A stretch of DNA of 64,000 nucleotides from Woeseiaceae bacterium (GTDB lineage: Bacteria > Pseudomonadota > Gammaproteobacteria > Steroidobacterales > Woeseiaceae). The stretch lies in assembly GCA_021773055.1 (NCBI GenBank), contig JAJFKV010000044.1, positions 20,151 through 84,150 of the forward strand, read 5' to 3'. The notes beneath the pieces are model-generated. The model made no database searches. It was given only the letters and a program-made list of their open reading frames with translations, and was not told where the DNA came from. Made by a program: the position numbers and the translations under genes. Of the stretch, positions 6,476 to 25,301 are shown one piece after another; the stretch's first letter is position 1, and each line of letters begins with the position of its first letter.

Positions 6476-6513
6476 CCAGACTGATCATAAATCACTCGTC
6501 GATGAATAGTCGA

Positions 6514-7737: not shown

Positions 7738-8750
7738 TCTGTCTCCATTAATCTTTGGATACCTGCTGACATACGTTTCAGTCCGGGGAAATACTGCCAC
7801 TCGAACGCGTGCGGGTAAGGGGTGTCCCAGCCGGCAACACGAGAGATGGGTGCTTCAAGATGGTAAAAACATTCCTTCTGTAGCGTTGCAGCAAGCTCGG
7901 CCCCGTAGCCGCCGAAGCGAGTGGCTTCATGTGCAATCAGACAGCGACCGGTTTTTTTCACCGAATCAGCGAGCGTCGCGACATCCAATGGTGCCAGCGT
8001 ACGAACATCAATGACTTCGCAGTCAACGCCAGTCTCTTTTGCGGCCGCAATCGCCACATGCACGAGTGTGCCATAGGTGACTATGGTCAATTCGTCACCG
8101 CTGCGCGCGATGTCTGCCTGACCAAGCGGTACTGTGTAATAGCCCTCCGGAACCTCACCTTTCGGATGTGAATTCCAGGAGACCGCCGGTTTTTCGGGGT
8201 CGCCGTCAAACGGACCGTTATAAATGCGCTTGGGTTCGAAGAATATTATCGGATCATCAGATTCGATCGCACTGATGAGCAGCCCCTTGGCGTCGTACGG
8301 GTTGGAAGGCATTACAACCTTGATGCCACTGACGTGGGTGAAAATACCTTCTGGCGATTGCGAGTGCGTCTGGCCACCACGAATACCGCCACCGCAAGGC
8401 GTGCGAATCGTAACGGGCGAGAAAAACTCACCGCCGGTTCGATACCGTATTTTCGCGAGTTCGCTGACGATCTGGTCGAATCCCGGGTAAATGTAATCAG
8501 CAAACTGGATCTCGGCAACGGGTCGCAGACCGTTCACGCCCATGCCAATCGCCGTGCCGATAATGCCGCCCTCGGAGATGGGTGCGTCAATAACGCGATG
8601 TTCACCGTACTTGCGCTGCAGTCCATCCGTACAACGGAAAACACCACCGAAGTAGCCAACGTCTTCACCCAGTACAACCACGGTCGGATCTTTGTCCATG
8701 ACAACGTCATGGGCGGAGCGAATCGCCTCGATCATATTCATGCGCGCCAT
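7734..8750 (-). CDS. bkdA2: Branched-chain alpha-keto acid dehydrogenase E1 beta subunit
   Basis: 338 aa with a typical transketolase-like E1-beta sequence (VVLGEDVGYFGGVFRCTDGLQRKYG; IFFEPKRIY). Confidence 0.92.
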   Translation of the reverse strand: MARMNMIEAIRSAHDVVMDKDPTVVVLGEDVGYFGGVFRCTDGLQRKYGEHRVIDAPISEGGIIGTAIGMGVNGLRPVAEIQFADYIYPGFDQIVSELAKIRYRTGGEFFSPVTIRTPCGGGIRGGQTHSQSPEGIFTHVSGIKVVMPSNPYDAKGLLISAIESDDPIIFFEPKRIYNGPFDGDPEKPAVSWNSHPKGEVPEGYYTVPLGQADIARSGDELTIVTYGTLVHVAIAAAKETGVDCEVIDVRTLAPLDVATLADSVKKTGRCLIAHEATRFGGYGAELAATLQKECFYHLEAPISRVAGWDTPYPHAFEWQYFPGLKRMSAGIQRLMETE

Positions 8751-9991
8751 TACTCGCCCGCCTCGACTTCAAGCATGCGGCGGCGTTGCGACACGAGGTT
8801 CCTCGGCATTTCAGCATAGACGTCGTCGAACATTGTTGCCGGATCGAGCCAGGGACCTTCAGTCATCGTGCCGTGTTTCTGCGCTTCCTTCCACGCGGCA
8901 GTCACCTCAGTTCGCAGTTCATCGACGAGGCTCTCATGCTTTGCATCAGACCAATGGCCTTCGGCAATCATGTACTGTTTCAGCCGCTCAACAGGGTCGC
9001 CCAGTGGGAAGGAGTCCCATTCGTCTTTCGGACGGTACTTCGATGGGTCGTCGCTCGTCGAGTGCGCACCGCCGCGATAGGTCACCAGTTCGATGAGCGT
9101 CGGGCCGGCACCACGGCGTGCGCGATCGGCGGCCCAGAGAGTCGCAGAATACACTGCCAGGAAATCATTACCGTCAACGCGCAGACCAGGAATGCCGAGG
9201 CCAAGTCCGCGGGCGGCAAAGGCTCGCCGTTGTCCTGCTGCTGTGCCCTGAAATGTCGAGATAGCCCATTGATTGTTGACGATGTTTAGAATTACGGGCG
9301 CCTGATAAATGGCTGCAAACGTCAGCGCGTGATGGAAGTCTGCCTCAGAGGTTGTGCCGTCACCCACCCAGGACGCCGCAATATGATCTTCGCCTTTGAT
9401 CGCCGATGCCATCGCCCAGCCCACAGCGTGCGGATACTGCGTGCCAAGGTTGCCGGAGATCGAAAACATGTTGCCGCTCTTGCTGTGATACATGATCGGC
9501 AGCTGCCGGCCCTGGCACATATCGCGAGTATTCGACAGGCACTGGCACATCATTTCGACCAGGTTCATGCCGCGATACATATACAGACCCTGATTTCGAT
9601 AAGAGGGGAAACACATGTCGCCCGAACGCAATGCCATGCCTTGTGCGATTGAAATAGCTTCCTCACCCAACGCCTGCATGTAAAATGAGATTCGACCCTG
9701 GCGCTGGATTTGCCACATGCGCTCATCGAAAACGCGGTTCAACAGCATCCAGCGCAAACCAACCTGCAATTGAGCTTTGTCGAACCCCGGGTCCCATGAA
9801 CCCTTAGCCGTGTGGTCGTCATCCAGTACACGAATAAGGCCGCTACTCAGGTGGTGGATATCCCGGTTGCGGGCGTCGAGCGGTGGTTTTTCGACACTAC
9901 CGGCCGGCGAGAGATCGAGGTAACTGAAGTCTGGTTCCTCGCCCGGTCTCGCGGTGGGTCTCGGGATTTGCAGTCGTGATTTAGTAATCAT
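8750..9991 (-). CDS. bkdA1: Branched-chain alpha-keto acid dehydrogenase E1 alpha subunit (TPP-dependent)
   Basis: 413 aa with TPP motif WVGDGTTSEADFHHALTFAAIYQAPVILNIVNNQWAIST. It has a 1-nt overlap with E1 beta. Confidence 0.92.
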   Translation of the reverse strand: MITKSRLQIPRPTARPGEEPDFSYLDLSPAGSVEKPPLDARNRDIHHLSSGLIRVLDDDHTAKGSWDPGFDKAQLQVGLRWMLLNRVFDERMWQIQRQGRISFYMQALGEEAISIAQGMALRSGDMCFPSYRNQGLYMYRGMNLVEMMCQCLSNTRDMCQGRQLPIMYHSKSGNMFSISGNLGTQYPHAVGWAMASAIKGEDHIAASWVGDGTTSEADFHHALTFAAIYQAPVILNIVNNQWAISTFQGTAAGQRRAFAARGLGLGIPGLRVDGNDFLAVYSATLWAADRARRGAGPTLIELVTYRGGAHSTSDDPSKYRPKDEWDSFPLGDPVERLKQYMIAEGHWSDAKHESLVDELRTEVTAAWKEAQKHGTMTEGPWLDPATMFDDVYAEMPRNLVSQRRRMLEVEAGE

Positions 9992-10003
9992 GCGTGCTTC
10001 CTG

Positions 10004-11056
10004 TTATTTCCTGCCGGCGGCAATTAAACGACGCGCGTATTCGTCCGCAAGTTCGTTGGTCGGCCGGCCGGTTTCGATTGCCTCGGCGAATAGCGTCTGT
10101 AGTCGCGCAGGAATTCTCTCTACATCAGCGCGCACCTTGTCTTCCGAGCTACCGCCATAATACTCGTGCGACACGCTGATAATACCGCCAGCGTTGATGA
10201 CATAATCGGGCGCATACAGAATATCGCGTGCCGAAAGCCTTGCGCCATCTTCCAGAGTGGACAGCTGGTTGTTGGCAGCGCCGGCGATGATTTTCGCTTT
10301 GATTTTAGGAATCGTCGCCGAAGTCAGGATGTTGCCGAGTGCGCAAGGCGCAAGTATCTCAGCATTGGCATACAGAATTTCGGCGGGTGCGACGACCTCA
10401 ACCGGAATACTTTCGCCCAATGCCTTTAAGTTGTAGCCATTCACGTCCGCGACAATGAGTTTGGCACCCGCTTCGTGCAGCAACTTGCAAAGGTAAACGC
10501 CGACATGGCCAACTCCCTGAACGGCGACCGTTAATCCGGCCAGCGAGTCCTTATCAAGTCGTGCTTTGACGGCGGCTTCGATTCCCAGGAATACACCAAG
10601 CGCCGTCCATGGCGACGGGTCACCGCCAGCATTTTGTCCGCTTTGCGGCAGACCGGACACATACTCTGTCTGTTGCTGTACGTGTCGCATATCTTCAACT
10701 GACATGCCCACATCTTCGGCTGTTATGTAACGGCCACTCAAAGAATTAACGGCGCGCCCGAACGCTGCCAGCAACTCCGGGGTTTTCGGCACAGCGTCAT
10801 CACCAATAATGACAGCCTTGCCACCGCCGAATGGAAGTTCCGCCACGGCATTCTTGTAGGTCATGCCGCGGGATAAGCGCAGTGCATCGGTTAACGCGTC
10901 TGCGTCGCTCACGTAGGACCAGCGTCGACAACCGCCGGCTGCCGGACCAAGAGCCGTTGAATGCACTGCAACGATGGTGCGTAGCCCGGTTGGCTCATCG
11001 TTTATGAAGTGCAGCGATTCATGGTTGTCGAATTCGGTGTGATCAAAGACGGCCAT
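10004..11056 (-). CDS. ldh: Leucine (Leu/Val/Phe-type) dehydrogenase
   Basis: Glu/Leu/Phe/Val dehydrogenase motifs ELPFGGGKAVII and VAVQGVGHVGVYL. The start MAVFDHTEF at 11056 is preferred over the ORF-track start at 11149. Confidence 0.88.
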   Translation of the reverse strand: MAVFDHTEFDNHESLHFINDEPTGLRTIVAVHSTALGPAAGGCRRWSYVSDADALTDALRLSRGMTYKNAVAELPFGGGKAVIIGDDAVPKTPELLAAFGRAVNSLSGRYITAEDVGMSVEDMRHVQQQTEYVSGLPQSGQNAGGDPSPWTALGVFLGIEAAVKARLDKDSLAGLTVAVQGVGHVGVYLCKLLHEAGAKLIVADVNGYNLKALGESIPVEVVAPAEILYANAEILAPCALGNILTSATIPKIKAKIIAGAANNQLSTLEDGARLSARDILYAPDYVINAGGIISVSHEYYGGSSEDKVRADVERIPARLQTLFAEAIETGRPTNELADEYARRLIAAGRK

Positions 11057-11194
11057 GCGTCTCCCCTGTGAGTGTGAGCTAGGCATAGATTGACTAATAT
11101 ATCGCGGAATAAGGCTATAAAGCTTGCAAAACCTTTTACGTAAGTTCAAAACAGCGCATAATCAATGTGATTATCTATTACTGGCGACTAAATC

Positions 11195-11662
11195 ATGCAA
11201 AACGTTTCGCTCGACCATACCGACCGCAAGATTCTTGATTTGCTGCAGACCAATCCCGGCATCAATGCGACCGCGATTGGTGAGCGGATCGGGCTGTCGC
11301 AGTCTGCATGCTGGCGCCGCATTCAGCGTATGCGAGAGGAAGGCGTAATTCGCGATCAAGCCGTCATCCTGGATCGTGAGAAGGTCGGGTTGACGACGAT
11401 GGTATTTGCACACGTCAAGCTGACGTCACACGGCCGCAGTAATTTGTCTACATTTGCCGAAGACGTGAAACGCTATCCGGAAGTGATGGATTGCTACGTT
11501 GTGCTCGGCAATGTTGACTTCTTGCTGCGCATCGTCACTGAGGACATCAAGGCCTACGAACAGTTTTTCTTCGAAAAACTATCGCAGCTGCCGGGTATTC
11601 AAGAGGTTAATTCGAGCATTGTGCTTTCTGATATCAAGCACACAACGGCGCTCCCAATCTAG
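11195..11662 (+). CDS. bkdR: Lrp/AsnC-family transcriptional regulator, divergent from the ldh-bkd operon (BkdR-like)
   Basis: 155 aa with an N-terminal HTH (LDHTDRKILDLLQTNPGINATAIGERIGLSQSACWRRIQRMREEGVI) and a C-terminal AsnC/RAM domain. The divergent arrangement matches the Pseudomonas bkdR-bkd layout. Confidence 0.85.
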   Translation: MQNVSLDHTDRKILDLLQTNPGINATAIGERIGLSQSACWRRIQRMREEGVIRDQAVILDREKVGLTTMVFAHVKLTSHGRSNLSTFAEDVKRYPEVMDCYVVLGNVDFLLRIVTEDIKAYEQFFFEKLSQLPGIQEVNSSIVLSDIKHTTALPI

Positions 11663-11712
11663 CTGCGGTGACAGTGACCATAACTCCATCATGCCGGGCG
11701 AAATCATATTGA

Positions 11713-13062
11713 TTACTCGATTGGCTCATCTTCAATTTCCAGCTCCGTATCAGGCTCGGGCTCAGGCTCCGAGAGGGTTGCGAGCATTGCGGCAAACTGG
11801 GCGGGGCGATAGCGCTCATCGTTATTTAGTGTGTCCGCAATCCGGTCCAGCTGATCTTCGAGCCGGGGGTCATCAATTTCGATAACCAGCATTTGCACCG
11901 CCATGAATGCCTGCTCGGCGCTGATGTAATCAATGTAGTTACCTTCCGCTCCGGTGCCGAGAATTTCGCGCAACAACCGCATTTCATGACCGCTTGGATT
12001 TCGAGGAGACAGCTGACCTTGCAAGCGGGCCAGGACGACGTCGAGTATTGCTGCGGCCTCCCGGATGGCGTCGATATTGTCGCTGCCTGCACGATGCAAC
12101 GCGACGAGGCCGGACTCCATCGCCTCCCCATCGGACGGGGACAGGGCGCGCGCCAATGCCATCGACATTACGAGCGTACCGTCGTGTACAAACGGCACAC
12201 CGGGTCCGGCACCGCCGTGCCGCGGTAGTGGTCGCCACTGCACAGTCTTCATTGAGCGGTGACAAGCGTGGCAGTCATAAAGCCCGAGCTCCGGAAACAT
12301 TCCTTCGCCGTCGAAAAGTGGTCCATCAATCAAGCTCAGGCGATGCCGGCTTTCGGCGAGTAGTCCGGCAGCCCAGCTGTAGCTGTGGCTTACCGAGCCT
12401 TTGCGCTCGCGATAATCTGCATCGATCCGATAGTGAGGTTGGCGACCAAAAGTACGCCATAACTCCGTAAATGTATCGAGTTCAAACGCGAGGCGGGGGT
12501 GTCCTGCCGCCATGATGCGATGCGTTGCAAACTTGTCCTTTGTACCGAGATGACAAGAGAGACAAAGGTCGCCACGCTTCGATACGGATTCGGTTGGATA
12601 CAGGCCGGCCTCGAGATTCGCCGCATGCGTGACGGTCGGTTGGTTGTAATGTGTCGCCAACCAGTTTTCCGCACCACCGTGGCAGGATTCGCAGCCAACA
12701 CCATCGGAAAGGTGAAATCGCTCACCGCGCTGCTGGAGCGGGACATTATCCGCGTGGCAGTCTAGGCATATTTTCGCCGTAATTGCCGATCCCAACCCGA
12801 GTCGTGCGGCGATACCCTTCGATCGGCTATTGCTGAGAACTTCGTAGGCCAGAGAGTGTGGGTCGTCCTGCGTCCAAGTGACGTACTCATTCTGCAAGAC
12901 GTTGGAACCCTCGCGCGGTACCGCTGAGCCATGGCATTGAGAAGCAGCGCAAGTAGCAACGCCCATGTGAACATAGCCATCGTTCTCGGGTAACTCGGCA
13001 GAGGTCACGCCAGCCAGCAAGATGCCAAGCGCAGCAAGCGACGTTCTATTCATCTTCGACAT
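11713..13062 (-). CDS. Secreted multihaem c-type cytochrome (4 CXXCH + 1 CX4CH) with an acidic C-terminal tail
   Basis: Signal peptide MSKMNRTSLAALGILLAGVTSA. Haem motifs are CAASQCH, CLDCH, CESCH, CLSCH and CHACH. The tail is EPEPEPDTELEIEDEPIE. The start is 13062 or 13053, overlapping the upstream stop by 17 or 8 nt. Confidence 0.85.
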   Translation of the reverse strand: MSKMNRTSLAALGILLAGVTSAELPENDGYVHMGVATCAASQCHGSAVPREGSNVLQNEYVTWTQDDPHSLAYEVLSNSRSKGIAARLGLGSAITAKICLDCHADNVPLQQRGERFHLSDGVGCESCHGGAENWLATHYNQPTVTHAANLEAGLYPTESVSKRGDLCLSCHLGTKDKFATHRIMAAGHPRLAFELDTFTELWRTFGRQPHYRIDADYRERKGSVSHSYSWAAGLLAESRHRLSLIDGPLFDGEGMFPELGLYDCHACHRSMKTVQWRPLPRHGGAGPGVPFVHDGTLVMSMALARALSPSDGEAMESGLVALHRAGSDNIDAIREAAAILDVVLARLQGQLSPRNPSGHEMRLLREILGTGAEGNYIDYISAEQAFMAVQMLVIEIDDPRLEDQLDRIADTLNNDERYRPAQFAAMLATLSEPEPEPDTELEIEDEPIE

Positions 13063-18501: not shown

Positions 18502-20443
18502 TGTTGATATAGGGAGTGGCAGGGCAATTCACATAGCGCAGGCGTGTTCCTTGCGGTACCAGCGTGTCCGCTCGCACTGCTGTCGCCGCATTGCTGAAAG
18601 TGCCGCCTTGTGCAGACTCATGTACGCCAAGGAACGCAATCATGTCGTCCTGATCGACGCCATCTCCGGAAACTCCGATGCCGCCAATGAGTTGTGAGCC
18701 ACGGTAGATCGGTACGCTGCCCGGAAAAATCTGGGTGCCGTTGGCAAGCGCCGGAATGACGCCTGCGGATACAAAGTTGTTGTCGAAGCCATCCACACCC
18801 GTGCAATTTGCAGGCACATCGGGGACCAGGCCCGCGACGAAGCCGACGTGTTGCACCAGCGCGTTATAAACGAGGTCCAGCTGCAGGCCGGTTGAAAAAG
18901 GACTCCATTGTCCGGCGGGTTTACTGAATGGACCCGGTGGATTGCCCGTCACGCCATCCGGGAAAAAAGGACGAGAGAGATTGCCACCCGCGCGGTCAGA
19001 AAACGCGATTGCGCCGTCGGTCAGTGCGTTGGGCAAGCCAAGGAAAGATTGTGCTGCGATGACGTACTGTGACAGTGGCTCTTTGCGTAGAAGAACAAGA
19101 CCGCCGTTTAAATAGGTCGCCGCCGGAACGCCATTTAGCGAGGCGGCCGCCGCGGCAGAAGAAAAGAAAGCCGCTGTTCGTGCTTTCTGCAGCGATACAT
19201 CCGTACCAAAAACCGGTGCATCTCGTGTTCTTACTATGCCGAGAATTACTCCGTTGGAGTCAACAACGGAAATCGTTACTCGGGCCTGGGTGCCACCGGG
19301 CTGGCGAATTTGTGCGCGTGAACGATTGGCCACCACCAAAGCCTGACTGAGGATGGCCTGAACTTCCGCTGCCGTTAAGGCCGAAGCGCCATCGGTGCCG
19401 GCGATCGGGCGATAGCGTTCAAGGTTGGCATTGTCGACAAGGACGAATGCGTCGAGACCGGCGTAATCGAGGGTGTCGGGACGAATGCCCGATGCGGGTT
19501 GTCCGAACGCTACGCCAGCGTTGGTTGTCGCCGCGACGTACCCGGGTACAGCGAGCAGCATTCCAGCGACGTTGTTGATGCTGGCAAATGTCGCTGCGCT
19601 GTTGGGGTCGGTAAGTAGCCCCGCTTGTGTTGCGTCTGAGAAGCGCAGGCTGCGACCGTCTACGGCGATGCGGTGAGCGCGTCGGTCATCAGGAGCCGCG
19701 AACCCGGATGCGGCAGCCAGTGCGATGAATTCATCGTTATCCTGGTCGAGGTCGGAAATATCGGGATCAAAGGAGTACAGCGCATCACTGATGACGCCAA
19801 CACCGCCGACGGGAGTGCCACCTTTATATAAAGGAAAGCCGCCAGAATCTGCGGCCAGGCCCAGTGGTGACCGGTGCGGGCCGGCGTCCGGCACGCCGCC
19901 CGCGTAGCGAGTTATGAGGTCGGAGCAGGCCAGCTGACTGAATTGCACACCGAATAACGGGCCAGCCGGCTGCAAATTATCTTGCGGATTGAAATGGTCC
20001 TGCACGATCTGGCTGGCAGTTCGTGTGCTGAACGCATTGCCTTCGGTCGAGAGGTAGGCCGCGGTTACGGCTTTGGAAATAGCGGCCATGCTGCCGGGAA
20101 TTATATTCACGCCTTCGAGGCCACCGTCTATGTTTCCGCCCGGTGATGTGATCGTTATGGCCACCGCAGCTGCGTTCATCTGAAAAACGGCGAGCACATT
20201 ACCCACACGATCAACAACAGCAATGGTACCGTCGACGTTGCGCGCTTGCGCTTCGCTGACCGCACGAGCTATGACGCTTTCGACATCTACAACACTCAGT
20301 TGCGTCGGTGTGTTCGCACAGAATCCATCGCAGCCGACTGCCGGCGTACTAACGTCAACATCTGTAGATTGCGGCCGGGAGCCACCACCGCATGCAGTGA
20401 TGAGCAGCAGAGCTGCGATCAAAAGTGGTGTGCGATGAATCAC
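18470..20443 (-). CDS. Lipoprotein with two GlcG/HbpS-like (DUF336, haem-binding/degrading fold) regions
   Basis: Lipobox LLITAC-GGG. GlcG-like segments are VESVIARAVSEAQARNVDGTIAVVDRVGNVLAVFQM, VTISVVDSNGVILGIVRTRDAPVFGTDVSLQKARTAAFF and PIYRGSQLIGGIGVSGDGVDQDDMIA. The GTG start forms a 4-nt overlap with the upstream stop. Confidence 0.65.
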   Translation of the reverse strand: MIHRTPLLIAALLLITACGGGSRPQSTDVDVSTPAVGCDGFCANTPTQLSVVDVESVIARAVSEAQARNVDGTIAVVDRVGNVLAVFQMNAAAVAITITSPGGNIDGGLEGVNIIPGSMAAISKAVTAAYLSTEGNAFSTRTASQIVQDHFNPQDNLQPAGPLFGVQFSQLACSDLITRYAGGVPDAGPHRSPLGLAADSGGFPLYKGGTPVGGVGVISDALYSFDPDISDLDQDNDEFIALAAASGFAAPDDRRAHRIAVDGRSLRFSDATQAGLLTDPNSAATFASINNVAGMLLAVPGYVAATTNAGVAFGQPASGIRPDTLDYAGLDAFVLVDNANLERYRPIAGTDGASALTAAEVQAILSQALVVANRSRAQIRQPGGTQARVTISVVDSNGVILGIVRTRDAPVFGTDVSLQKARTAAFFSSAAAAASLNGVPAATYLNGGLVLLRKEPLSQYVIAAQSFLGLPNALTDGAIAFSDRAGGNLSRPFFPDGVTGNPPGPFSKPAGQWSPFSTGLQLDLVYNALVQHVGFVAGLVPDVPANCTGVDGFDNNFVSAGVIPALANGTQIFPGSVPIYRGSQLIGGIGVSGDGVDQDDMIAFLGVHESAQGGTFSNAATAVRADTLVPQGTRLRYVNCPATPYINSDEQNVCENK

Positions 20444-22044
20444 GGATATGAGTCCTTCGCCTCAAAGTGGAAACCGTGGCACATGACGCAAGTGCTCGAA
20501 ATTTGAGTTGCTGAATTACGTCCGGACTCACCGCTGCCATGGCAATCACGACACACGCTGATGCCCGGTATCAATAGATCAGTGGCAACTTCCGACTGCG
20601 TCGCAAAGTGGCAGCTATCGCAGCCGCTCACATCAGTATCGTGGGAGGCGTGCGAGAAAACCGCGTGCGGGAAAAATATTTCCGTCAGTTGTACCGGATC
20701 AATGTGCCAGGGAACGTCACCCTCGGTGTTCGTCACCGTGTGGCAATTGATACAAGCTCGCCTCTCAAACAGGTCCTCTGCGACATTTAAAGCTTCGGTG
20801 CGTGCCTCTGCCGCCACGCGGTCCCGGTCCGCCCGCGAGAGCCTTCTTCCCGGCCGTCGTACGCGTTGATCGACTACATCGGGATCTGCGCCTAACAGGC
20901 GTGCGCTGTAATACTCGATCAATGCCTGCACGACGGCATCAGCATCACCGTGTGGGACTGTGCGTGTCGGTTCATCCGGGTCAAATGCCAGGGTATGGCA
21001 GTCGCTGCAGTGTTTATCCATCGAGATCGCCTGCATGCGCGCGCCGCCGGGATCCGGCGTATGACATTCAGCGCACTCAATGACGCGCATGCCGTCGGGC
21101 GTGATGATGCCATTTGGGTCCAGGTGAATCAGGTGATTGAAATTTAGGTTCGATACATCGGCATGTGTGGCTGATGTCAGTTCAAGCTGATCGATCAACC
21201 ATTCCGTTTCGCCGTCAGGAGACTCTGTCGGTCGCTTGAGACTGACTTCGAAATTCGGATGGTCATCGAGAAAATCTGCCGCGTTTTGCAGTTCCACACC
21301 GCTTGGCAGGTTTGCGTGACAATCAGCACACAGATCCTGATGCTGGTTAACCAGTTGCGGTGGTTCGTTGTGCTCGAGGTGGCACAACGCGCAGCGCGTC
21401 TCCCCAAGTACTGCATGTTGACGTTCCGTTGCGTGGCGTTGCACGGCGTGGCATTCGACACAGGCATCATCCGGCACGCGCTTGAACAATGTGGTGTGGC
21501 AGCTGCCGCAGTCGCTTGCGATCGACGCATGCGCGCTATTCACCGGCCCGGCCAGTAAGAAATCGTGCATGACTAATGCTGGCATGGCGAAGCCGAGAAG
21601 CAGCACGACCGCGACGAGTGTCCATGCAATCTTGCGTTTGCTCCAGCCACCAATTCCGCTTGTTGGTGTACTCCACCGGGATATCAGGTGCTCGTCGTCG
21701 GCGTCTTCGCGGAGCTCAAAGCTAATTGCGAAGTTGAAGCCGTCGGGAGGGTCGATGACGCGAATGACGTTCGCACCAACCTCAATTACATCACCTGCAC
21801 TTAGCCTGGTGCTACGTTGTGATTTTCCGTTGACAGTAACGCCTGCCATCGCGTTCGTAGTGATGTGGATCGCCCCGTCTTTCGGTTCAATCACGGCGTG
21901 TTGTAATCGCGCCCGGCGATCTTTCAGGTGCAATACCTGGTCTGTGGAGCGGCCAATCGTGATCGCCGGTGCATCGACGGGGTGGTCATGCTGTTCAACG
22001 CCACCGGCTGCATTTCTTGTGATGAATCGAATCAGATAGGCCAT
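20440..22044 (-). CDS. FHA domain - single TM - periplasmic decahaem c-type cytochrome
   Basis: N-terminal FHA-like region (ITIGRSTDQVLHLKDRRARLQHAVIEPKDGAIHITTNAMAGVTVNGKS...GDVIEVGANVIRV) followed by the TM helix WTLVAVVLLLGFAMPALV. Ten CXXCH motifs follow (CGSCH, CVECH, CALCH, CADCH, CAECH, CSDCH, CINCH, CDSCH, CRDCH, CVMCH). Confidence 0.85.
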   Translation of the reverse strand: MAYLIRFITRNAAGGVEQHDHPVDAPAITIGRSTDQVLHLKDRRARLQHAVIEPKDGAIHITTNAMAGVTVNGKSQRSTRLSAGDVIEVGANVIRVIDPPDGFNFAISFELREDADDEHLISRWSTPTSGIGGWSKRKIAWTLVAVVLLLGFAMPALVMHDFLLAGPVNSAHASIASDCGSCHTTLFKRVPDDACVECHAVQRHATERQHAVLGETRCALCHLEHNEPPQLVNQHQDLCADCHANLPSGVELQNAADFLDDHPNFEVSLKRPTESPDGETEWLIDQLELTSATHADVSNLNFNHLIHLDPNGIITPDGMRVIECAECHTPDPGGARMQAISMDKHCSDCHTLAFDPDEPTRTVPHGDADAVVQALIEYYSARLLGADPDVVDQRVRRPGRRLSRADRDRVAAEARTEALNVAEDLFERRACINCHTVTNTEGDVPWHIDPVQLTEIFFPHAVFSHASHDTDVSGCDSCHFATQSEVATDLLIPGISVCRDCHGSGESGRNSATQISSTCVMCHGFHFEAKDSYP

Positions 22045-22048
22045 ATCG

Positions 22049-22918
22049 TCACCAGTACAGGAACACGGTTAGGATATGCGCAATCAGGGCCATAAGCAGA
22101 GCGGCCGTCAACGGGACATGGGCATAAAGCCAGATCTCAATGCCAGCCTGTAATTTCAGGTCTGCGCCGACCTGTCGCAAGAGTTTGCGCTTGTTGCGAA
22201 GCAGGGCGGACAACTCCGCGATCGTCGCGGCAGAATTCGCATCAGCACGCGATTGTTGCTCGGCGAGCCAGTCCATCGCAGCTTCCTGACCCGGGTTTAG
22301 AATGGTTTCCGCCTGATTCGGTATCTGAATACGGGACCGGTCTTCGTTACGCAATCGCTGCCACAAGGTACTGCCCAGCTCAGTACGCTGAATGCCACTG
22401 GTAACGAAGTCCTGATACTCATTTGGCAGATTTTCAGCAACCCGGCGGCTGCGCCGGTCAATGTCATCCAGCTGGTCGAGCAGCTCTGAACGACTCGAGC
22501 CATCACGATTTTCACTAAGCCGTTCCGGATACTTCAAATAGATGAAAACACCGTACATGCCGCTGACGATGACCAGTGTCATGAGCGCGAAAGCCAGCGT
22601 GTGAATATTCCATCCGACCTGGAACCCGGCATGCAGAAGAACGATGACAAACAACGCGATGCCGAAATAGACGTGCGCCGACAGCCAGCCCTGCAAGGTT
22701 CCCGCGGTCGAGCTGTAGCGTCGCTTTCGCACGCCAAACCACGTTAACCAGACAATCATTAACGCTCCGAATGTTCCCAGCGTGTAGCCAAGTACTGTGC
22801 CACCGTTGGGAGGCTCCTGTGGGTCATGAATCCAGTAGGCAAGCAGACAAACAATAGTCAGTGCCGTCGCCGCCCAAAGATAGCGGTACCTCCTGAAGAC
22901 GAGTATCGATTCGTGCAT
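22049..22918 (-). CDS. Integral membrane protein (4 TM + ~130-aa soluble insert + 1 TM) with two H-x13-H helices; putative di-haem b-type electron carrier
   Basis: TM3 is SAHVYFGIALFVIVLLHAGF and TM5 is YAHVPLTAALLMALIAHILTV, each with two His separated by exactly 13 residues. No other family motif was recognised. Confidence 0.55.
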   Translation of the reverse strand: MHESILVFRRYRYLWAATALTIVCLLAYWIHDPQEPPNGGTVLGYTLGTFGALMIVWLTWFGVRKRRYSSTAGTLQGWLSAHVYFGIALFVIVLLHAGFQVGWNIHTLAFALMTLVIVSGMYGVFIYLKYPERLSENRDGSSRSELLDQLDDIDRRSRRVAENLPNEYQDFVTSGIQRTELGSTLWQRLRNEDRSRIQIPNQAETILNPGQEAAMDWLAEQQSRADANSAATIAELSALLRNKRKLLRQVGADLKLQAGIEIWLYAHVPLTAALLMALIAHILTVFLYW

Positions 22919-22919
22919 C

Positions 22920-25301
22920 TCAGCTCGCCTTCTTGGTTAGATTGACGAACTCGGCAGGGCTCATTCGCAATGCCGCGCCGGTAGGGCACGCTCGTACGCA
23001 GGCCGGCCCGCCAGAAAGGTCTTTGCACATGTCGCATTTGACGGCTTTCTTGATGGCCGTCTTGCTGGCATCGGGACTACCTATGGCCTGACGTTCACCG
23101 GGCGCGGCGCCTTTGCCCGTCAGCAGCCAGTTCAACAGGCTCGGTGCCGCTTCTTTTTCGCTCGCCATTTGGATAACGCCATACGGGCAGTTGCGCTCGC
23201 AATTACCACAACCGATGCAACTGTCTTCAATATAAACTTCGCCATTGGGGGCGCGACGGATGGCGTCGGGCGGGCAGTCCTTCATGCAATGCGGATCTTC
23301 GCAGTGACGACACGAGGTCGGTACGTGAACCTGTGCATAGGACGGCCCGGCAGCGCGGTCGAGTCGTGATGTGCCGCCGTGGGTCTCCGCACAGGCTTTC
23401 TCGCAATTGTCGCAACCGACACACAAGGACTCGTCAATCAGCAGCACATCAGTTGCTTCACCCAGACCTTGTTGCATCAGGAATGAAATCAGGTCACCCG
23501 CATCCGGAGCGGCCTCCATGCGCAGGTTCTCACTGATGCGCTCTTTCACTTTTGTCTGGATGCGTTCACGCAGCCCGGTGTTGCGCAGCAGCATGGTCTG
23601 AAAAACGTCGGCGCGCAGGAAGACCGACTCTGTTGCCACAGTCGCCGTGACGGTCGCCGATCGACGCGTTTCTCCAACCAGGCCCATCTCGCCGACGTAG
23701 TTGCCCGCTGCCACGTAAGTCGTGACGATGTCGCGGCCACCGATATGGCGCGACACTGAAACCGAACCATTGCGTATCAGGTGCAATCCGTCTGCCTCAT
23801 CACCTTCTTTGAAGAGAACGTCATTAGCTCGAAATGAAATAAGCTCTGCCGTTGCAGCGACGGCTTCGAGCTCGCCCAGGGGTGAGTCCGGTACGAGATC
23901 AGCCTGCAAAGTGCGCACGATAAAGTGCTGATCGATGACCTGCCGCACCGGTTCGTAGCTGTTCATCAGCTTGATCATTTCGCGGCGCGGTGTTTCCAGT
24001 AACACGCAGTCCGCTGATGCACGCACAGTCGCTGAACGCCTGCGACCCGACAGTAAACTCATTTCGCCGAAGAACTGACCCTGACCCAGGCCGATAAACT
24101 GGCCATCATCCGTTTCGACCTCCACTTCGCCTTCGACGATGGATATGAACGAGTTGGTGTAATCATTCTTGTGGAAAATAACGTCGGCGCGCTTCGGCGT
24201 GAGCAATTCACTCGCGAGAACAAGTTCACGCAACACGAGACCATTAACGTTTTCAAACAGCGATACGTTGCCGCGAATCAACGCCAGTGTGTCATCGACA
24301 CCCTTGCCATACGGCAAGTGCCGGAACTTATCTTCGAGTATGCCGTGATCGGCCGGCAAAATATCGTTGCCCTTAATGAACTCAACGACTTCGTAGCCCT
24401 GGTTCATCGCCTGTTTGATAAGGGGGTAGCCCCCCAGTGCACCGATGACATACAGACCGGGCACATTGGATTCATAATGACCTGAAAGCTCGGGCAAGGT
24501 TGTTGGCTCATCACTCGGAAAAGTAATGCCAGTGGATTCCACGAAGCGACGCGGTGGGATGGCACCAACACGAGCGATCACGCGGTCGCACTCAACACGA
24601 GTCTCACCGGTCTCAGTGTTCAGGTTGATGGCTTTCGAGACTTCGATCGATGCGACACCTGTGTTGAAAAAACAGCTGATCGAACCATCTTCAATGGCGC
24701 GGGTAATCAGCGTCAGGTTGCCTTCTTTCGCGCGCGCAAACTCATCCCGGCGATTAACGATGACAACGGCGTTATTGCGCGCCAGCGCCACAGCATTTTC
24801 GATAGCCGCATCGCCAGCACCAACGATGGCGATAGTTTCATTCTTGTATTCATCGGGGTCGTCCAGCGTGTATTGCACACTTGAGTCACTCTCCCCGTCG
24901 ACGCCCATCTTGCGTGGATTACCCTGCAACCCTATGGAAAGAACGATTGTTTCCGCCTGTAAGGTTTCACCGTCGGCAAGTTGCAGTTCGAATTCAGGTC
25001 TGGAGCCCGTAATGGCGGTTACTTCCGCGTTGTAACGAATATTGACCTCAAGATCGTCGAGTCCGGATTGCCAGCTGCTGAGAATCGCCTCGCGCGTGCC
25101 TGCCGCAAATCCAAGATCACTTCGCAGTGGCACGACAGACGGTTCGGCCATGACGTGCTTGCCTTTCTGGTAGCGCTGGATCGTATTGGCGGGCGCGGCG
25201 CTGCTTTCCAGCAGCAGGTATTTCAGCCCGAGCACTTGCGCGCGTGCAGCCGCACTTAATCCCGCCGGCCCCGCACCGACGATGACGAGCTCAAGACTCA
25301 C
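22920..25301 (-). CDS. Cytoplasmic FAD/NAD(P)-dependent oxidoreductase (thioredoxin-reductase-like) fused to two cyclic-nucleotide-binding domains and a 4x[4Fe-4S]-motif ferredoxin domain
   Basis: Dinucleotide folds LVIVGAGPAGLSAA and IAIVGAGDAAIENA. cNMP phosphate-binding cassettes FGEMSLLSGRRRSATVRA and VGEMGLVGETRRSATVTA. Cys clusters CVGCDNCEKAC, CRHCEDPHCMKDCP, CIGCGNCERNCP and CDMCKDLSGGPACVRACP. There is no signal peptide and the start is GTG. Confidence 0.85.
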   Translation of the reverse strand: MSLELVIVGAGPAGLSAAARAQVLGLKYLLLESSAAPANTIQRYQKGKHVMAEPSVVPLRSDLGFAAGTREAILSSWQSGLDDLEVNIRYNAEVTAITGSRPEFELQLADGETLQAETIVLSIGLQGNPRKMGVDGESDSSVQYTLDDPDEYKNETIAIVGAGDAAIENAVALARNNAVVIVNRRDEFARAKEGNLTLITRAIEDGSISCFFNTGVASIEVSKAINLNTETGETRVECDRVIARVGAIPPRRFVESTGITFPSDEPTTLPELSGHYESNVPGLYVIGALGGYPLIKQAMNQGYEVVEFIKGNDILPADHGILEDKFRHLPYGKGVDDTLALIRGNVSLFENVNGLVLRELVLASELLTPKRADVIFHKNDYTNSFISIVEGEVEVETDDGQFIGLGQGQFFGEMSLLSGRRRSATVRASADCVLLETPRREMIKLMNSYEPVRQVIDQHFIVRTLQADLVPDSPLGELEAVAATAELISFRANDVLFKEGDEADGLHLIRNGSVSVSRHIGGRDIVTTYVAAGNYVGEMGLVGETRRSATVTATVATESVFLRADVFQTMLLRNTGLRERIQTKVKERISENLRMEAAPDAGDLISFLMQQGLGEATDVLLIDESLCVGCDNCEKACAETHGGTSRLDRAAGPSYAQVHVPTSCRHCEDPHCMKDCPPDAIRRAPNGEVYIEDSCIGCGNCERNCPYGVIQMASEKEAAPSLLNWLLTGKGAAPGERQAIGSPDASKTAIKKAVKCDMCKDLSGGPACVRACPTGAALRMSPAEFVNLTKKAS

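What the first reader, a model, noticed from the sequence alone, without database searches (positions are those of the whole stretch)
22049..22918. Membrane protein with two H-x13-H transmembrane helices: a possible novel di-haem b electron shuttle
Seen: five predicted TM helices. TM3 (SAHVYFGIALFVIVLLHAGF) and TM5 (YAHVPLTAALLMALIAHILTV) each carry two histidines separated by exactly 13 residues. A hydrophilic insert of about 130 aa, rich in Arg/Glu/Gln, separates TM4 and TM5. Known: the pair of H-x13-H helices is the bis-His ligation pattern of the two stacked b haems in cytochrome b of bc1/b6f. It is nearly the same (x13/x12) in ferric-reductase/NOX domains. Inference: this protein could carry electrons across the inner membrane, from the cytoplasmic flavo-FeS protein 1 nt upstream to the periplasmic decahaem cytochrome 4 nt downstream. 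I could not place it in a named family.
Basis: partly seen in the sequence, partly recalled or inferred. Interest (0 to 1): 0.6.

Follow-up and report, generated by a model that had tools for sequence, protein, structure and literature searches.

The report
Putative two-haem membrane electron carrier
This gene encodes a widespread but biochemically untested inner-membrane protein whose four invariant histidines probably hold two haems and pass electrons between a cytoplasmic iron-sulfur flavoprotein and a periplasmic ten-haem cytochrome; the motif and this idea were already published in 2017.

Summary
The minus-strand ORF 22049-22918 encodes a 289-aa protein with five TM helices. It carries H82-x13-H96 on TM3 and H267-x13-H281 on TM5, and a folded 134-aa cytoplasmic insert between TM4 and TM5.

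The four His are 95-100% conserved in 121 cluster representatives (clusters at 50% identity). They are the only His invariant across three diverged subfamilies.

The gene sits in a conserved three-gene core. An FeS protein abuts it upstream in 60/64 loci. A decahaem cytochrome follows it in 56/57. In Magnetococcales the FeS flavoprotein and this protein are fused.

It is not new as a kind. He et al. 2017 described this "IMP" of PCC3/PCC4 porin-cytochrome clusters: 5 TM, WX3HX13H on TM3 and TM5, SGXXG on TM4, two b haems proposed. Elbon et al. 2024 named the equivalent gene PtdF. P0001 matches every motif and is 25% identical to a ptd-type IMP.

No test placed it in Pfam Ferric_reduct, Ni_hydr_CYTB or cytochrome b. 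This covers HMM, profile-profile and Foldseek searches. Only helix numbering and membrane orientation resemble NOX/FRD.

Haem binding, partners and electron direction remain untested. His-His distances could not be measured.

The earlier scan notes used here are on this same window, not other DNA.

The parts
22049..22918 (-). Whole gene: 289-aa inner-membrane protein (P0001), the 'IMP'/PtdF-like putative di-haem b carrier
   Evidence: ORF and translation. 1516 homologues in clusters at 90% identity and 2299 representatives at 50% identity. AF2 pLDDT 96.2, pTM 0.89.
22829..22885 (-). TM1 (res 12-30), running in to out. It follows a basic N-terminus (3 K+R in 13 residues).
   Evidence: Hydropathy and DSSP. 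Positive-inside count. N-terminal fusions to a cytoplasmic flavo-FeS protein.
22733..22795 (-). TM2 (res 42-62) with conserved G44, G48 (invariant across subfamilies) and G62. G48 and G62 are spaced x13.
22721..22729 (-). Cytoplasmic TM2-TM3 loop motif R64-K65-R66. K65 is invariant across subfamilies. Candidate docking site for the FeS protein (inferred).
   Evidence: Conservation 92-98%. K65 present in 26/26 sequences.
22625..22693 (-). TM3 (res 76-98) carrying W78-x3-H82-x13-H96 and G86. H82 is the proposed ligand of the cytoplasm-side haem and H96 of the periplasm-side haem.
   Evidence: Codons read.
22601..22609 (-). N104-I-H106 at the periplasmic start of TM4. Conserved 98% within this subfamily only; absent from PCC3- and ptd-type relatives.
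22535..22606 (-). TM4 (res 105-128) with S119-G120-x-x-G123 (SGXXG, 22550-22564) and Y127.
   Evidence: Motif as defined in PMC5566968.
22136..22534 (-). Folded cytoplasmic insert (res 129-261). It consists of helical extensions of TM4 and TM5, three further helices and a small beta-hairpin. Proposed docking platform (inferred).
   Evidence: AF2 pLDDT 95-98 and DSSP. Charge content. Present in all subfamilies.
22058..22135 (-). TM5 (res 262-287) carrying W263-x3-H267-x13-H281 and P269. H267 is the proposed ligand of the cytoplasm-side haem and H281 of the periplasm-side haem. The C-terminus is periplasmic.
   Evidence: Weak Ni_hydr_CYTB hit on residues 252-288.
22920..25301 (-). Upstream partner (P0003): TrxR-like FAD/NAD(P)H domain, two cNMP-binding domains and a four-cluster ferredoxin module. 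No TM helix.
   Evidence: Pfam and NCBIfam. Cys clusters at residues 627, 664, 695 and 756, and no TM helix. An FeS ORF abuts the IMP in 60/64 loci.
20440..22044 (-). Downstream partner (P0002): cytoplasmic FHA domain, one TM helix (139-159) and a periplasmic decahaem c-type cytochrome.
   Evidence: Pfam FHA and cytochrome c7/c3. 10 CXXCH motifs and one TM helix. An ORF with 9 or more haem motifs is adjacent in 56/57 loci.

Best explanation
P0001 is a member of the uncharacterised 'IMP'/PtdF family of inner-membrane proteins found in multihaem-cytochrome gene clusters.

It most likely binds two b-type haems by bis-His ligation. One sits near the cytoplasmic face (H82 on TM3 with H267 on TM5). 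The other sits near the periplasmic face (H96 with H281). Invariant Gly residues on TM2 and TM4 (G48, G120, G123) would make room for the porphyrins.

The protein lies N-in/C-out. Its basic TM2-TM3 loop (R-K-R) and the folded 134-aa TM4-TM5 insert face the cytoplasm. There they probably dock the four-cluster FeS module of the NAD(P)H flavoprotein encoded 1 nt upstream.

Electrons would run NAD(P)H -> FAD -> [4Fe-4S]x4 -> haem b (inner) -> haem b (outer) -> the membrane-anchored decahaem encoded 4 nt downstream, and on to the outer-membrane module. Functionally this would be a split, NOX-like trans-membrane electron exporter.

Shown: motifs, conservation, topology signals, gene adjacency, fusions.
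Inferred: haem binding, docking surfaces, direction of flow.
For: (1) The four His are 95-100% conserved in 121 representatives. They are the only His invariant across own-type, PCC3-type and ptd-type proteins. Also invariant are W78, G86, S119, G120, G123, W263, G48 and K65.

(2) Both His of each pair lie on the conserved face of their helix. The Gly of TM2 and TM4 also lie on the conserved faces.

(3) Topology: K+R counts are 3, 4 and 20 in the N-terminus, the TM2-3 loop and the insert, against 0, 0 and 0 in the other loops and the C-terminus. TM3 and TM5 therefore both run in to out and the His pairs lie at matching depths.

(4) Three diverged natural fusions join a flavo-cNMP-FeS protein to the N-terminus of an IMP: P0226 (Magnetococcus sp. 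YQC-9), P0274 and P0275. They are 48-63% identical in the IMP part.

(5) Synteny in species-representative genomes: FeS ORF abutting upstream in 60/64 loci, decahaem adjacent downstream in 56/57, and a second large decahaem 4-10 kb downstream in 36/41.

(6) The FeS protein has no TM helix or signal peptide, and its N-terminus is a Rossmann fold. The decahaem has one TM anchor.

(7) Confident fold: pLDDT 96.2, pTM 0.89, with a structured insert.

(8) Sub-threshold hits of family members go only to di-haem cytochrome families: Ni_hydr_CYTB 51/121, DUF4405 14/121, Ferric_reduct 6/121.

(9) The same inference was published independently (PMC5566968).

(10) Precedent for a membrane haem protein fed by a separate cytosolic NAD(P)H flavoreductase: MsrQ-Fre-MsrP (PMC12525009).
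Against: No member has been purified, so haem content is unknown.

Foldseek found no solved structure with E < 0.1, and none with probability above 0.51, for either model. That includes NOX, STEAP, cytochrome b561 and cytochrome b. This held for the whole model and for TM1-TM4 alone.

Profile searches found no PDB relative.

Hhalign against MsrQ-type FRD gave E = 0.3-0.5.

Most PCC3-type relatives lack an adjacent FeS gene, so an FeS donor is not universal in the wider family.

The direction of flow rests only on thermodynamic reasoning.

No RNA run holding the gene was listed.
Confidence: 0.62

Rival explanations
1. It is a quinone-coupled cytochrome b. The two haems connect the periplasmic multihaem cytochromes to the membrane quinone pool, as a quinol dehydrogenase or quinone reductase. 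This is the model He et al. 2017 drew for electron uptake from Fe(II). The neighbouring FeS flavoprotein would then be a regulator or a parallel route.
For: Proposed in PMC5566968.

PCC3-type relatives usually have no FeS gene within 1.5 kb (10 of 12 loci), so they need another redox partner.

The periplasm-side pair N104/H106, conserved in this subfamily only, could belong to a quinol site.

MsrQ, another small membrane haem protein, was found to carry ubiquinone (PMC12525009).
Against: In this subfamily the FeS flavoprotein abuts the gene in 60/64 loci and is fused to it in three diverged proteins.

The most conserved non-membrane features (RKR loop, folded insert) face the cytoplasm.

No known quinone-site motif was identified.
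Confidence: 0.2
2. It is the same di-haem carrier but works inward. Electrons taken up from extracellular donors (Fe(II), minerals, cathodes) by the outer-membrane module are delivered through the decahaem and the b haems to the cytoplasmic FeS flavoprotein. That protein then reduces NAD(P)+ or a disulfide.
For: PCC3/PCC4 clusters were first found in Fe(II) oxidisers, and the PCC3 inner-membrane gene is up-regulated when Sideroxydans CL21 oxidises iron.

The flavoprotein domain resembles YpdA/TrxR-type disulfide reductases.
Against: Moving electrons from the positive to the negative side of the membrane, and up to the NAD(P)H potential, is doubly uphill. No energy-coupling subunit is present in the operon. 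This is an inference from general bioenergetics, not a test.
Confidence: 0.1
3. It is not a redox cofactor protein. The conserved His, Trp and Gly serve another role: a membrane scaffold for the FHA-anchored cytochrome, a haem-handling or chaperone function for cytochrome c maturation, or a metal-ion site.
For: No haem has been demonstrated.

Foldseek and profile searches fail to tie the fold to any solved cytochrome.

A CcmH/CycH-like gene neighbours the PCC3-type paralogue in this genome and in G023.
Against: There is no WWD or Cys motif of haem-handling proteins, and the periplasmic loops are only 8-10 residues long.

Two H-x13-H pairs on parallel helices, with facing Gly, form the classical bis-haem arrangement.

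The only Pfam families weakly hit are di-haem cytochromes.
Confidence: 0.06

Closest known systems
Conserved inner-membrane protein (IMP) of the 'PCC3' and 'PCC4' porin-cytochrome gene clusters (He et al. 2017, Front Microbiol 8:1584, PMC5566968)
   Same: About 300 aa, five TM helices, WX3HX13H on TM3 and on TM5, and SGXXG on TM4. It lies in a cluster with multihaem cytochromes and an outer-membrane barrel. In PCC4 subgroup II an Fe-S gene sits directly upstream. All of these are present here.

The window's genome also carries a PCC3-type copy (P0273).
   Different: This gene belongs to a third, very large subfamily.
- Its FeS partner has an N-terminal NAD(P)H flavoprotein domain.
- Its decahaem has an FHA domain and a TM anchor.
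- The outer module is a barrel plus a decahaem-LVIVD propeller, not the 4- and 5-haem set.
- It has an extra conserved N104/H106.

He et al. reported no significant homology between PCC3 and PCC4 IMPs. Here the profile of this subfamily finds both types at E 1e-19 to 1e-28.
PtdF of the ptdABCDEFG operon (Elbon, Stewart & Glass, bioRxiv 10.1101/2023.11.21.568154)
   Same: The gene order matches: cNMP-binding 4Fe-4S protein (PtdE), membrane 'ferric reductase-like' protein (PtdF), decahaem (PtdG).

A ptd-type locus found here (L173) runs tetrahaem, cNMP+Fer4, IMP, decahaem, pentahaem. Its IMP aligns with P0001 over 263 residues at 25% identity, E 5e-10.
   Different: They are a sister subfamily, not orthologues (profile E about 1e-21 against about 1e-110 within the subfamily).

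The published accessions themselves could not be fetched for a direct comparison.

The function of Ptd is stated to be completely unknown.
Ferric reductase domain superfamily (NOX, FRE, STEAP, MsrQ/YedZ; Pfam PF01794; Zhang et al. 2013, PMC3591440)
   Same: The His pairs sit on TM3 and TM5. Both helices run from cytoplasm to outside. The inner haem uses the first His of each helix and the outer haem the second. The N-terminus is cytoplasmic and the electron donor is on the cytoplasmic side.

MsrQ takes electrons from a separate cytosolic flavoreductase and hands them to a periplasmic partner.

UniRef names one member 'Ferric reductase like transmembrane component'.
   Different: Five TM helices, not six. 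The TM5 spacing is x13, not the x12 of NOX2. A 134-aa insert replaces the short TM4-TM5 loop.

The PF01794 HMM does not find it: no hit for P0001, and only 6/121 members at sub-threshold scores.

Hhalign against MsrQ-type sequences gives E 0.3-0.5. No NOX or STEAP structure appears in the Foldseek lists.
Prokaryotic cytochrome b561 / Ni_hydr_CYTB (Pfam PF01292: CybB, FdnI, HyaC)
   Same: This is the best, though weak, sequence signal.
- P0001 residues 252-288 score 17.5 bits.
- 51/121 members hit, best E 3.8e-8.
- The insert-deleted profile aligns over 116 columns at E 0.0017, probability 15%.
- An Atlas model of a family member superposes on a PF01292 cluster with TM 0.59 over 125 residues.

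The last helix of both carries W..H-x13-H.
   Different: The score is below the gathering threshold of 30.1 bits.

PF01292 proteins have four TM helices with ligands spread over TM1, TM2 and TM4. Their H-x13-H helix runs from periplasm to cytoplasm (my recollection of FdnI, Jormakka et al. 2002). The aligned helices therefore have opposite membrane orientation, and the likeness may be convergent.
Cytochrome b of bc1/b6f complexes
   Same: Two H-x13-H helices separated by one helix, with conserved Gly on the flanking helices. This gives two stacked b haems across the membrane (established knowledge; cited in PMC5566968).
   Different: No Pfam cytochrome b hit at E <= 1. The His-bearing helices are TM2 and TM4 and run the opposite way. 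There are no quinone-site motifs, no Rieske or c1 partners, and the protein is much smaller.
Tmc/Hmc/DsrMKJOP-type transmembrane redox complexes of sulfate reducers
   Same: The logic is the same (my knowledge of these systems). A periplasmic multihaem cytochrome c, a membrane di-haem cytochrome b and a cytoplasmic FeS protein form one trans-membrane electron path.

Weak NCBIfam echoes appear in the neighbours: TmcA, HmcB and DsrO.
   Different: Their membrane subunits are NarI- or NrfD-type with other His spacings. Their cytoplasmic subunits are CCG/HdrD-like, not NAD(P)H flavoproteins. No homology to P0001 was detected.

Membership tests
IMP of PCC3/PCC4 clusters (He et al. 2017) | About 300 aa with five predicted TM helices | tested here: met
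   289 aa. Helices at 12-30, 42-66, 75-97, 105-128 and 262-287.
IMP of PCC3/PCC4 clusters (He et al. 2017) | WX3HX13H on TM3 and on TM5 | tested here: met
   W78-x3-H82-x13-H96 and W263-x3-H267-x13-H281. Both motifs are present in 346 of 394 family proteins fetched; many of the rest are fragments.
IMP of PCC3/PCC4 clusters (He et al. 2017) | SGXXG on TM4 | tested here: met
   S119-G-M-Y-G123. S119, G120 and G123 are invariant in 26/26 sequences across subfamilies.
IMP of PCC3/PCC4 clusters (He et al. 2017) | Encoded in a cluster with multihaem cytochromes c and a porin; Fe-S gene directly upstream (PCC4 subgroup II) | tested here: met
The operon content is shown. FeS upstream in 60/64 loci and decahaem downstream in 56/57.
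PtdF (ptdABCDEFG) | Membrane protein encoded between the cNMP-binding 4Fe-4S protein and the decahaem | tested here: met
   Same order in the ptd-type locus L173.
PtdF (ptdABCDEFG) | Sequence homology to the published PtdF accessions (e.g. MBT5131323, SMF72604) | not testable with these tools
   The accessions are listed in Table S7 but the sequences could not be fetched. As a proxy, the IMP of the ptd-type locus L173 is 25% identical, E 5e-10.
Pfam PF01794 Ferric_reduct / FRD superfamily | HMM score above the curated cut-off | tested here: not met
   No PF01794 hit for P0001 at E <= 1. The PF01794 search of the own genome finds only an MsrQ-like gene on contig C6. 6/121 members hit at sub-threshold scores.
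Pfam PF01794 Ferric_reduct / FRD superfamily | Six TM helices | tested here: not met
   Five TM helices; the protein ends 2 residues after TM5.
Pfam PF01794 Ferric_reduct / FRD superfamily | Four haem-ligand His: two on TM3 and two on TM5, with the first of each at the cytoplasmic side | tested here: met
   His positions and N-in topology. Definition taken from PMC3591440.
Pfam PF01794 Ferric_reduct / FRD superfamily | Profile-profile or structural similarity to known members | tested here: inconclusive
   Hhalign E 0.3-0.5, but the comparator was MsrQ/YedZ-type, which lacks the first His. There is no NOX or STEAP among the 50 matches listed for each Foldseek search. Helical membrane folds score poorly in Foldseek.
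Pfam PF01292 Ni_hydr_CYTB (prokaryotic cytochrome b561) | HMM score above the curated cut-off (30.1 bits) | tested here: not met
   17.5 bits, covering residues 252-288 only. Not found by PF01292 in the own genome at E <= 1e-10.
Pfam PF01292 Ni_hydr_CYTB (prokaryotic cytochrome b561) | Four-TM bundle with ligands on TM1, TM2 and TM4, and the H-x13-H helix running from periplasm to cytoplasm | tested here: not met
   Here the ligand pairs are on two helices that run from cytoplasm to periplasm. The PF01292 topology is from memory (the FdnI structure), not tested.
Cytochrome b (bc1/b6f; PF00033/PF13631) | HMM match | tested here: not met
   No hit at E <= 1 in Pfam. No PDB relative by sequence or profile.
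Any b-type di-haem cytochrome | Two non-covalent haems bound by bis-His ligation | not testable with these tools
   This needs purified protein, or a cofactor-aware model with coordinates. The AF2 tool returned no coordinates.

The most novel reading that the evidence does not exclude
This subfamily, together with its fused NAD(P)H-flavo/cNMP/four-cluster partner, may be a bacterial 'split NADPH oxidase-like' electron exporter with two features. First, its membrane haem domain would be an independent family, not FRD, b561 or cytochrome b. Second, its throughput would be switched directly by a cyclic nucleotide made by the CHASE2 cyclase that heads the operon. That would be a second-messenger-gated wire from cytoplasmic NAD(P)H to the cell surface, present in hundreds of species.
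Probability: 0.3. Interest if true: 0.75.

Novelty: new member of a known kind. Interest (0 to 1): 0.4.

Why it matters
How electrons cross the inner membrane is the least understood step of most porin-cytochrome extracellular electron-transfer systems outside Shewanella and Geobacter.

This family is very large.
- 2299 cluster representatives at 50% identity.
- At least 586 of about 185,000 species-representative genomes matched by two exact peptide patterns alone.
- It occurs in marine sediment Woeseiaceae, Lysobacterales, Steroidobacteraceae, Alphaproteobacteria, Magnetococcales and Planctomycetota.

If the protein is a di-haem carrier fed by an NAD(P)H flavoprotein, these bacteria would have a quinone-independent, probably non-energy-conserving route to dump or deliver reducing power outside the cell. 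That would bear on metal cycling in sediments and on bioelectrochemistry.

The family has been predicted since 2017 but never purified. Cultured hosts found here (Oceanibacterium hippocampi CECT 7691, Alcanivorax sp. 1008, Pseudoteredinibacter isoporae) make the test practical.

Tried and rejected
(1) Foldseek of the full AF2 model against the PDB gave nothing below E 0.29. The top hits were TRP channels, F-BAR and TorS helical bundles, driven by the long helical insert.

(2) A second AF2 model of TM1-TM4 only (pLDDT 91) also gave nothing in Foldseek, with best E 0.36.

(3) phmmer and a 121-sequence profile against PDB sequences found no relative.

(4) Hhalign of the family profile against alignments I built from genomes:
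- MsrQ-type PF01794: E 0.5.
- CybB-type PF01292: E 0.004 over 21 columns.
- With the insert columns deleted: E 0.3 and 0.0017 (probability 15%).
This is too weak to claim homology. The PF01292 alignment also implies inverted topology.

(5) The search for related loci with the 121-sequence alignment failed because no stretch was conserved enough. It was repeated with 20 closer sequences.

(6) I tried to tie the gene to the published PtdF accessions through supplement tables and cluster look-ups. No organism or accession overlapped among the proteins listed.

(7) A search for transcription found no RNA run listed, only DNA runs from biofilm and marine-sediment metagenomes.

(8) I considered a CcsBA/CcmF-like haem-handling role and rejected it. 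There is no WWD motif, the periplasmic loops are tiny, and there are no Cys motifs.

(9) I considered NarI-type cytochrome b and rejected it on His spacing (from memory) and the lack of any HMM hit.

(10) His-His distances in the model could not be computed because coordinates are not exposed. A helical-wheel conservation analysis was used instead.
Full report
**The observation.** The finding's coordinates hold a minus-strand ORF (ATG at 22918, stop at 22049-22051) encoding a 289-aa protein, P0001. No plus-strand ORF of 80 aa or more competes inside it.
- His residues are at 2, 31, 82, 96, 106, 267 and 281. H82/H96 and H267/H281 are two exact H-x13-H pairs.
- Hydropathy and the AlphaFold2 secondary structure agree on five membrane helices: 12-30, 42-66, 75-97, 105-128 and 262-287. 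TM4 and TM5 continue as long helices into a 134-residue insert with 20 K+R and 22 D+E.
- The upstream flavo-FeS gene ends 1 nt before the ATG, and an AAGGCGAG Shine-Dalgarno-like stretch lies inside its 3' end. The decahaem gene starts 4 nt after the stop.
- Two such His pairs arise in 0.7% of shuffles of this protein. Conservation is what makes the pattern more than chance.

**Conservation.** The family is large.
- 1516 hits in the 90%-clustered collection.
- 2299 representatives at 50% clustering, 612 of them with E <= 1e-10.
- At least 7775 proteins with E <= 1e-20 when an alphaproteobacterial member is the query.

In 121 near-full-length representatives that are 31-62% identical to P0001, conservation is as follows:
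- H96 and G120: 100%.
- H82 and H106: 98%.
- H267 and H281: 95%.
- Above 90%: W78, W263, G48, G62, G86, G123, R64-K65-R66, N104, Y127 and P131.

I then aligned this subfamily with two more distant ones found in genome searches (24 distinct sequences). The columns invariant in all are G48, K65, W78, H82, G86, H96, S119, G120, G123, W263, H267, H281 and V285. H106 and N104 are confined to the query's own subfamily.

The four His of the finding are therefore the only universally kept His. They sit with Trp four residues before the first His of each pair, and with Gly on the two neighbouring helices. On helical wheels both His of each pair, and the Gly of TM2 and TM4, fall on the conserved face of their helix.

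**Topology.**
- Basic residues are concentrated in the N-terminus (3), the TM2-TM3 loop (4, the RKRR stretch) and the insert (20). The two short loops 31-40 and 99-106 and the C-terminus have none. This gives N-in/C-out.
- Independent support comes from three natural fusion proteins. In each, a flavo-cNMP-FeS protein like the upstream neighbour is joined by a short linker to the N-terminus of an IMP. They are P0226 (1110 aa, Magnetococcus sp. YQC-9, MEO5345780.1), P0274 (1118 aa, Magnetococcales) and P0275 (1136 aa). They are 48-63% identical to each other in the IMP part, so the fusion is maintained and is not a sequencing slip.
- TM3 and TM5 therefore both run from cytoplasm to periplasm. 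H82 and H267 lie near the cytoplasmic face, and H96 and H281 near the periplasmic face.

**Surroundings.** The upstream protein, P0003, has these parts:
- a TrxR/YpdA-like FAD/NAD(P)H domain;
- two cNMP-binding domains;
- four Cys clusters of the Fer4_11 type;
- no TM helix.

The downstream protein, P0002, has an FHA domain, one TM helix (139-159) and ten CXXCH motifs.

The rest of the operon encodes a CHASE2 cyclase, TPR/SlipAM-like and FecR-like proteins, an HbpS-like protein, a 596-aa protein without Pfam hits, a decahaem-LVIVD protein and a c554-like cytochrome.

I examined 80 loci from species-representative genomes. At least 586 species matched two exact peptide patterns. Among the 80 loci:
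- an ORF with two or more CxxCxxCxxxC motifs abuts the IMP upstream in 60 of 64 assessable loci;
- an ORF with nine or more CXXCH motifs is adjacent downstream in 56 of 57, and within 3.3 kb in the remaining one;
- a second decahaem of more than 1000 aa lies 4-10 kb downstream in 36 of 41.

In a sample of 400 Gammaproteobacteria, 17 genomes carry a close orthologue (E < 1e-90) and 64 carry some relative. One of these genomes (G039, locus L012) is unpublished.

**What is already known.** [quoted passage not shown] The function is described as completely unknown.

A literature search then found He et al. 2017 (PMC5566968). They describe a conserved ~300-aa inner-membrane protein in 'PCC3' and 'PCC4' porin-cytochrome clusters:
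- five TM helices;
- SGXXG on TM4;
- WX3HX13H on TM3 and TM5;
- an explicit proposal of two b haems, by analogy with FRD and cytochrome b;
- in PCC4 subgroup II, an Fe-S gene directly upstream.

P0001 carries every one of these motifs.

I found a ptd/PCC4-type locus (L173), ordered tetrahaem, cNMP+Fer4 protein, IMP, decahaem, pentahaem. Its IMP aligns with P0001 over 263 residues at 25% identity, E 5e-10.

The window's own genome also has a PCC3-type copy, P0273. It lies next to 522-aa and 991-aa multihaem cytochromes, a CycH-like protein, a cyclophilin and a divergent Fer4+Pyr_redox_3 flavoprotein.

Later papers on PCC3 report expression and AlphaFold models of the cytochromes but no biochemistry of the membrane protein.

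This gene is a new member, in a distinct and very populous subfamily, of a family known only from bioinformatics.

**Which named family?** None by any test I could run.
- Pfam gives only a sub-threshold Ni_hydr_CYTB hit on TM5 (17.5 bits against a cut-off of 30.1). NCBIfam gives nothing.
- Across the 121 representatives, the only recurrent weak hits are three di-haem cytochrome families: Ni_hydr_CYTB in 51 (best E 3.8e-8), DUF4405 in 14 and Ferric_reduct in 6.
- The PF01794 and PF01292 models do not pick up this gene in its own genome.
- Profile-profile comparison with alignments I built gave E 0.5 against MsrQ-type FRD and E 0.004 against CybB-type b561. With the insert columns removed the values were E 0.3 and E 0.0017 (116 columns, probability 15%).
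- Sequence and profile searches of the PDB found no relative.
- The AF2 model is very confident (pLDDT 96.2, pTM 0.89). Foldseek against the PDB found nothing below E 0.29 for the whole model and nothing below E 0.36 for a separate TM1-TM4 model.
- The ESM Atlas gave two leads. A family member's model superposes on a PF01292 cluster with TM 0.59 over 125 residues. Family clusters are auto-named 'Ferric reductase like transmembrane component', a name UniRef also gives to the Oceanibacterium hippocampi member.

Two caveats apply.
- My FRD comparator was YedZ/MsrQ-type, which lacks the first canonical His (PMC3591440). That negative result is therefore weak.
- The b561 alignment pairs helices of opposite membrane orientation, if my recollection of FdnI topology is right. 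It may reflect convergence on a haem-binding helix.

What the protein does share with NOX/FRD is the architecture defined by Zhang et al. There are two His on TM3 and two on TM5. The first of each serves the cytoplasm-side haem and the second the outer haem, and the N-terminus is cytoplasmic. It differs in having five rather than six helices, x13 rather than x12 spacing on TM5, and a large TM4-TM5 insert.

**Mechanism.** The best-supported reading is a trans-membrane two-haem wire. The four-cluster module of the NAD(P)H flavoprotein docks on the cytoplasmic RKR loop and the folded insert. The inner haem (H82/H267) accepts electrons. The outer haem (H96/H281) passes them to the decahaem anchored beside it by one TM helix.

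- Shown: motif, conservation, topology signals, synteny, fusions.
- Inferred: haem binding, docking surfaces, direction.

The outward direction is favoured for two reasons. NAD(P)H is the strongest reductant in the chain, and moving electrons outward goes with the membrane potential. This is general bioenergetics, not a test.

The main rival is the quinone-coupled model of He et al. It remains plausible, especially for PCC3-type relatives, which mostly lack an adjacent FeS gene. However, Fer4+TrxR-like flavoproteins do turn up next to PCC3-type IMPs in this genome and in G252.

The MsrQ-Fre-MsrP system is a precedent for a small membrane haem protein fed by a separate cytosolic flavoreductase.

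**Limits.**
- No RNA run holding the gene was listed. DNA matches come from biofilm and marine-sediment metagenomes.
- The published PtdF and PCC4 accessions could not be compared directly.

**Verdict.** It is a new member of a known, biochemically uncharacterised kind.

Points added here:
- homology linking the PCC3-type, ptd/PCC4-type and this third subfamily;
- the Magnetococcales fusions;
- the cross-subfamily invariant set;
- the subfamily-specific N104/H106;
- the failure of every test to place the family inside FRD, b561 or cytochrome b.

Noticed in passing
Own genome contig C50:58251-78000 = L003 (IMP paralogue at L003:9899-10804): The genome holds a second, PCC3-like cluster. In order: cyclophilin, a divergent Fer4+Pyr_redox_3 flavoprotein (438 aa), a CycH/CcmH-like protein, the IMP paralogue P0273 (which keeps WX3HX13H twice and SGLIG), a 522-aa multihaem cytochrome, a 991-aa multihaem cytochrome and an 820-aa TPR protein.
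   Followed up: partly
P0226, P0274, P0275 (Magnetococcales; not in the window): Natural single-ORF fusions of the flavo-cNMP-FeS protein with the IMP, 1110-1136 aa long. They are 48-63% identical to each other in the IMP part, and P0226 is 47% identical to P0003 in the FeS part. NCBI annotates them only as 'cyclic nucleotide-binding domain-containing protein'.
   Followed up: partly
window 22601-22609 (minus strand; N104-I-H106): A fifth His (H106) and N104 at the periplasmic mouth of TM4 are 98% conserved in this subfamily but absent from PCC3- and ptd-type relatives. In the weak hhalign alignment with CybB-type b561, H106 falls on a conserved His at the start of b561 TM3. Their role is unexplained. 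Candidates are a contact with the decahaem, a propionate partner or a quinol site.
   Followed up: partly
ESM Atlas result, row 4 (no sequence id available): A cluster of 738-aa proteins from Thermodesulfobacteriota carries Cytochrome_C554 domains. It aligns structurally with a family member over 233 residues (TM 0.62 by the IMP-like model). This may be a natural fusion of an IMP-like domain with a multihaem cytochrome c. The sequences could not be retrieved.
   Followed up: no
L023 (G252:C126) 2440-3768, minus strand of the locus: A 443-aa Fer4 + Pyr_redox_3 flavoprotein lies directly upstream of a PCC3-type IMP on the same strand. It has the same domain pair as the divergent gene beside the PCC3-like cluster of the window's genome. 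PCC3 descriptions in the literature list only four genes and do not mention it.
   Followed up: partly
L173 (G058:C35) 6382-12966: A compact ptd/PCC4-type locus in a gammaproteobacterial genome: c554-like tetrahaem, a cNMP+Fer4 protein (580 aa, without the flavoprotein domain), the IMP (280 aa), a decahaem (613 aa, with no Pfam FHA hit) and a pentahaem cut off by the contig end. The flavoprotein fusion and the FHA anchor of the window's operon therefore appear specific to its subfamily.
   Followed up: partly
L112, L127, L167: Three loci with this cluster come from MAG records titled 'Klebsiella pneumoniae' (two) and 'Rhizobium sp. Q54'. Their IMPs are 45-47% identical to the query and their neighbours look like those of Steroidobacteraceae and Lysobacterales loci. 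The organism labels of these bins look doubtful.
   Followed up: no
window 20440-25301: Near-identical DNA (88-95% of sampled words) is held by four runs of one biofilm-metagenome study. Weaker shares are held by several marine-sediment metagenomes. No RNA run was listed.
   Followed up: partly
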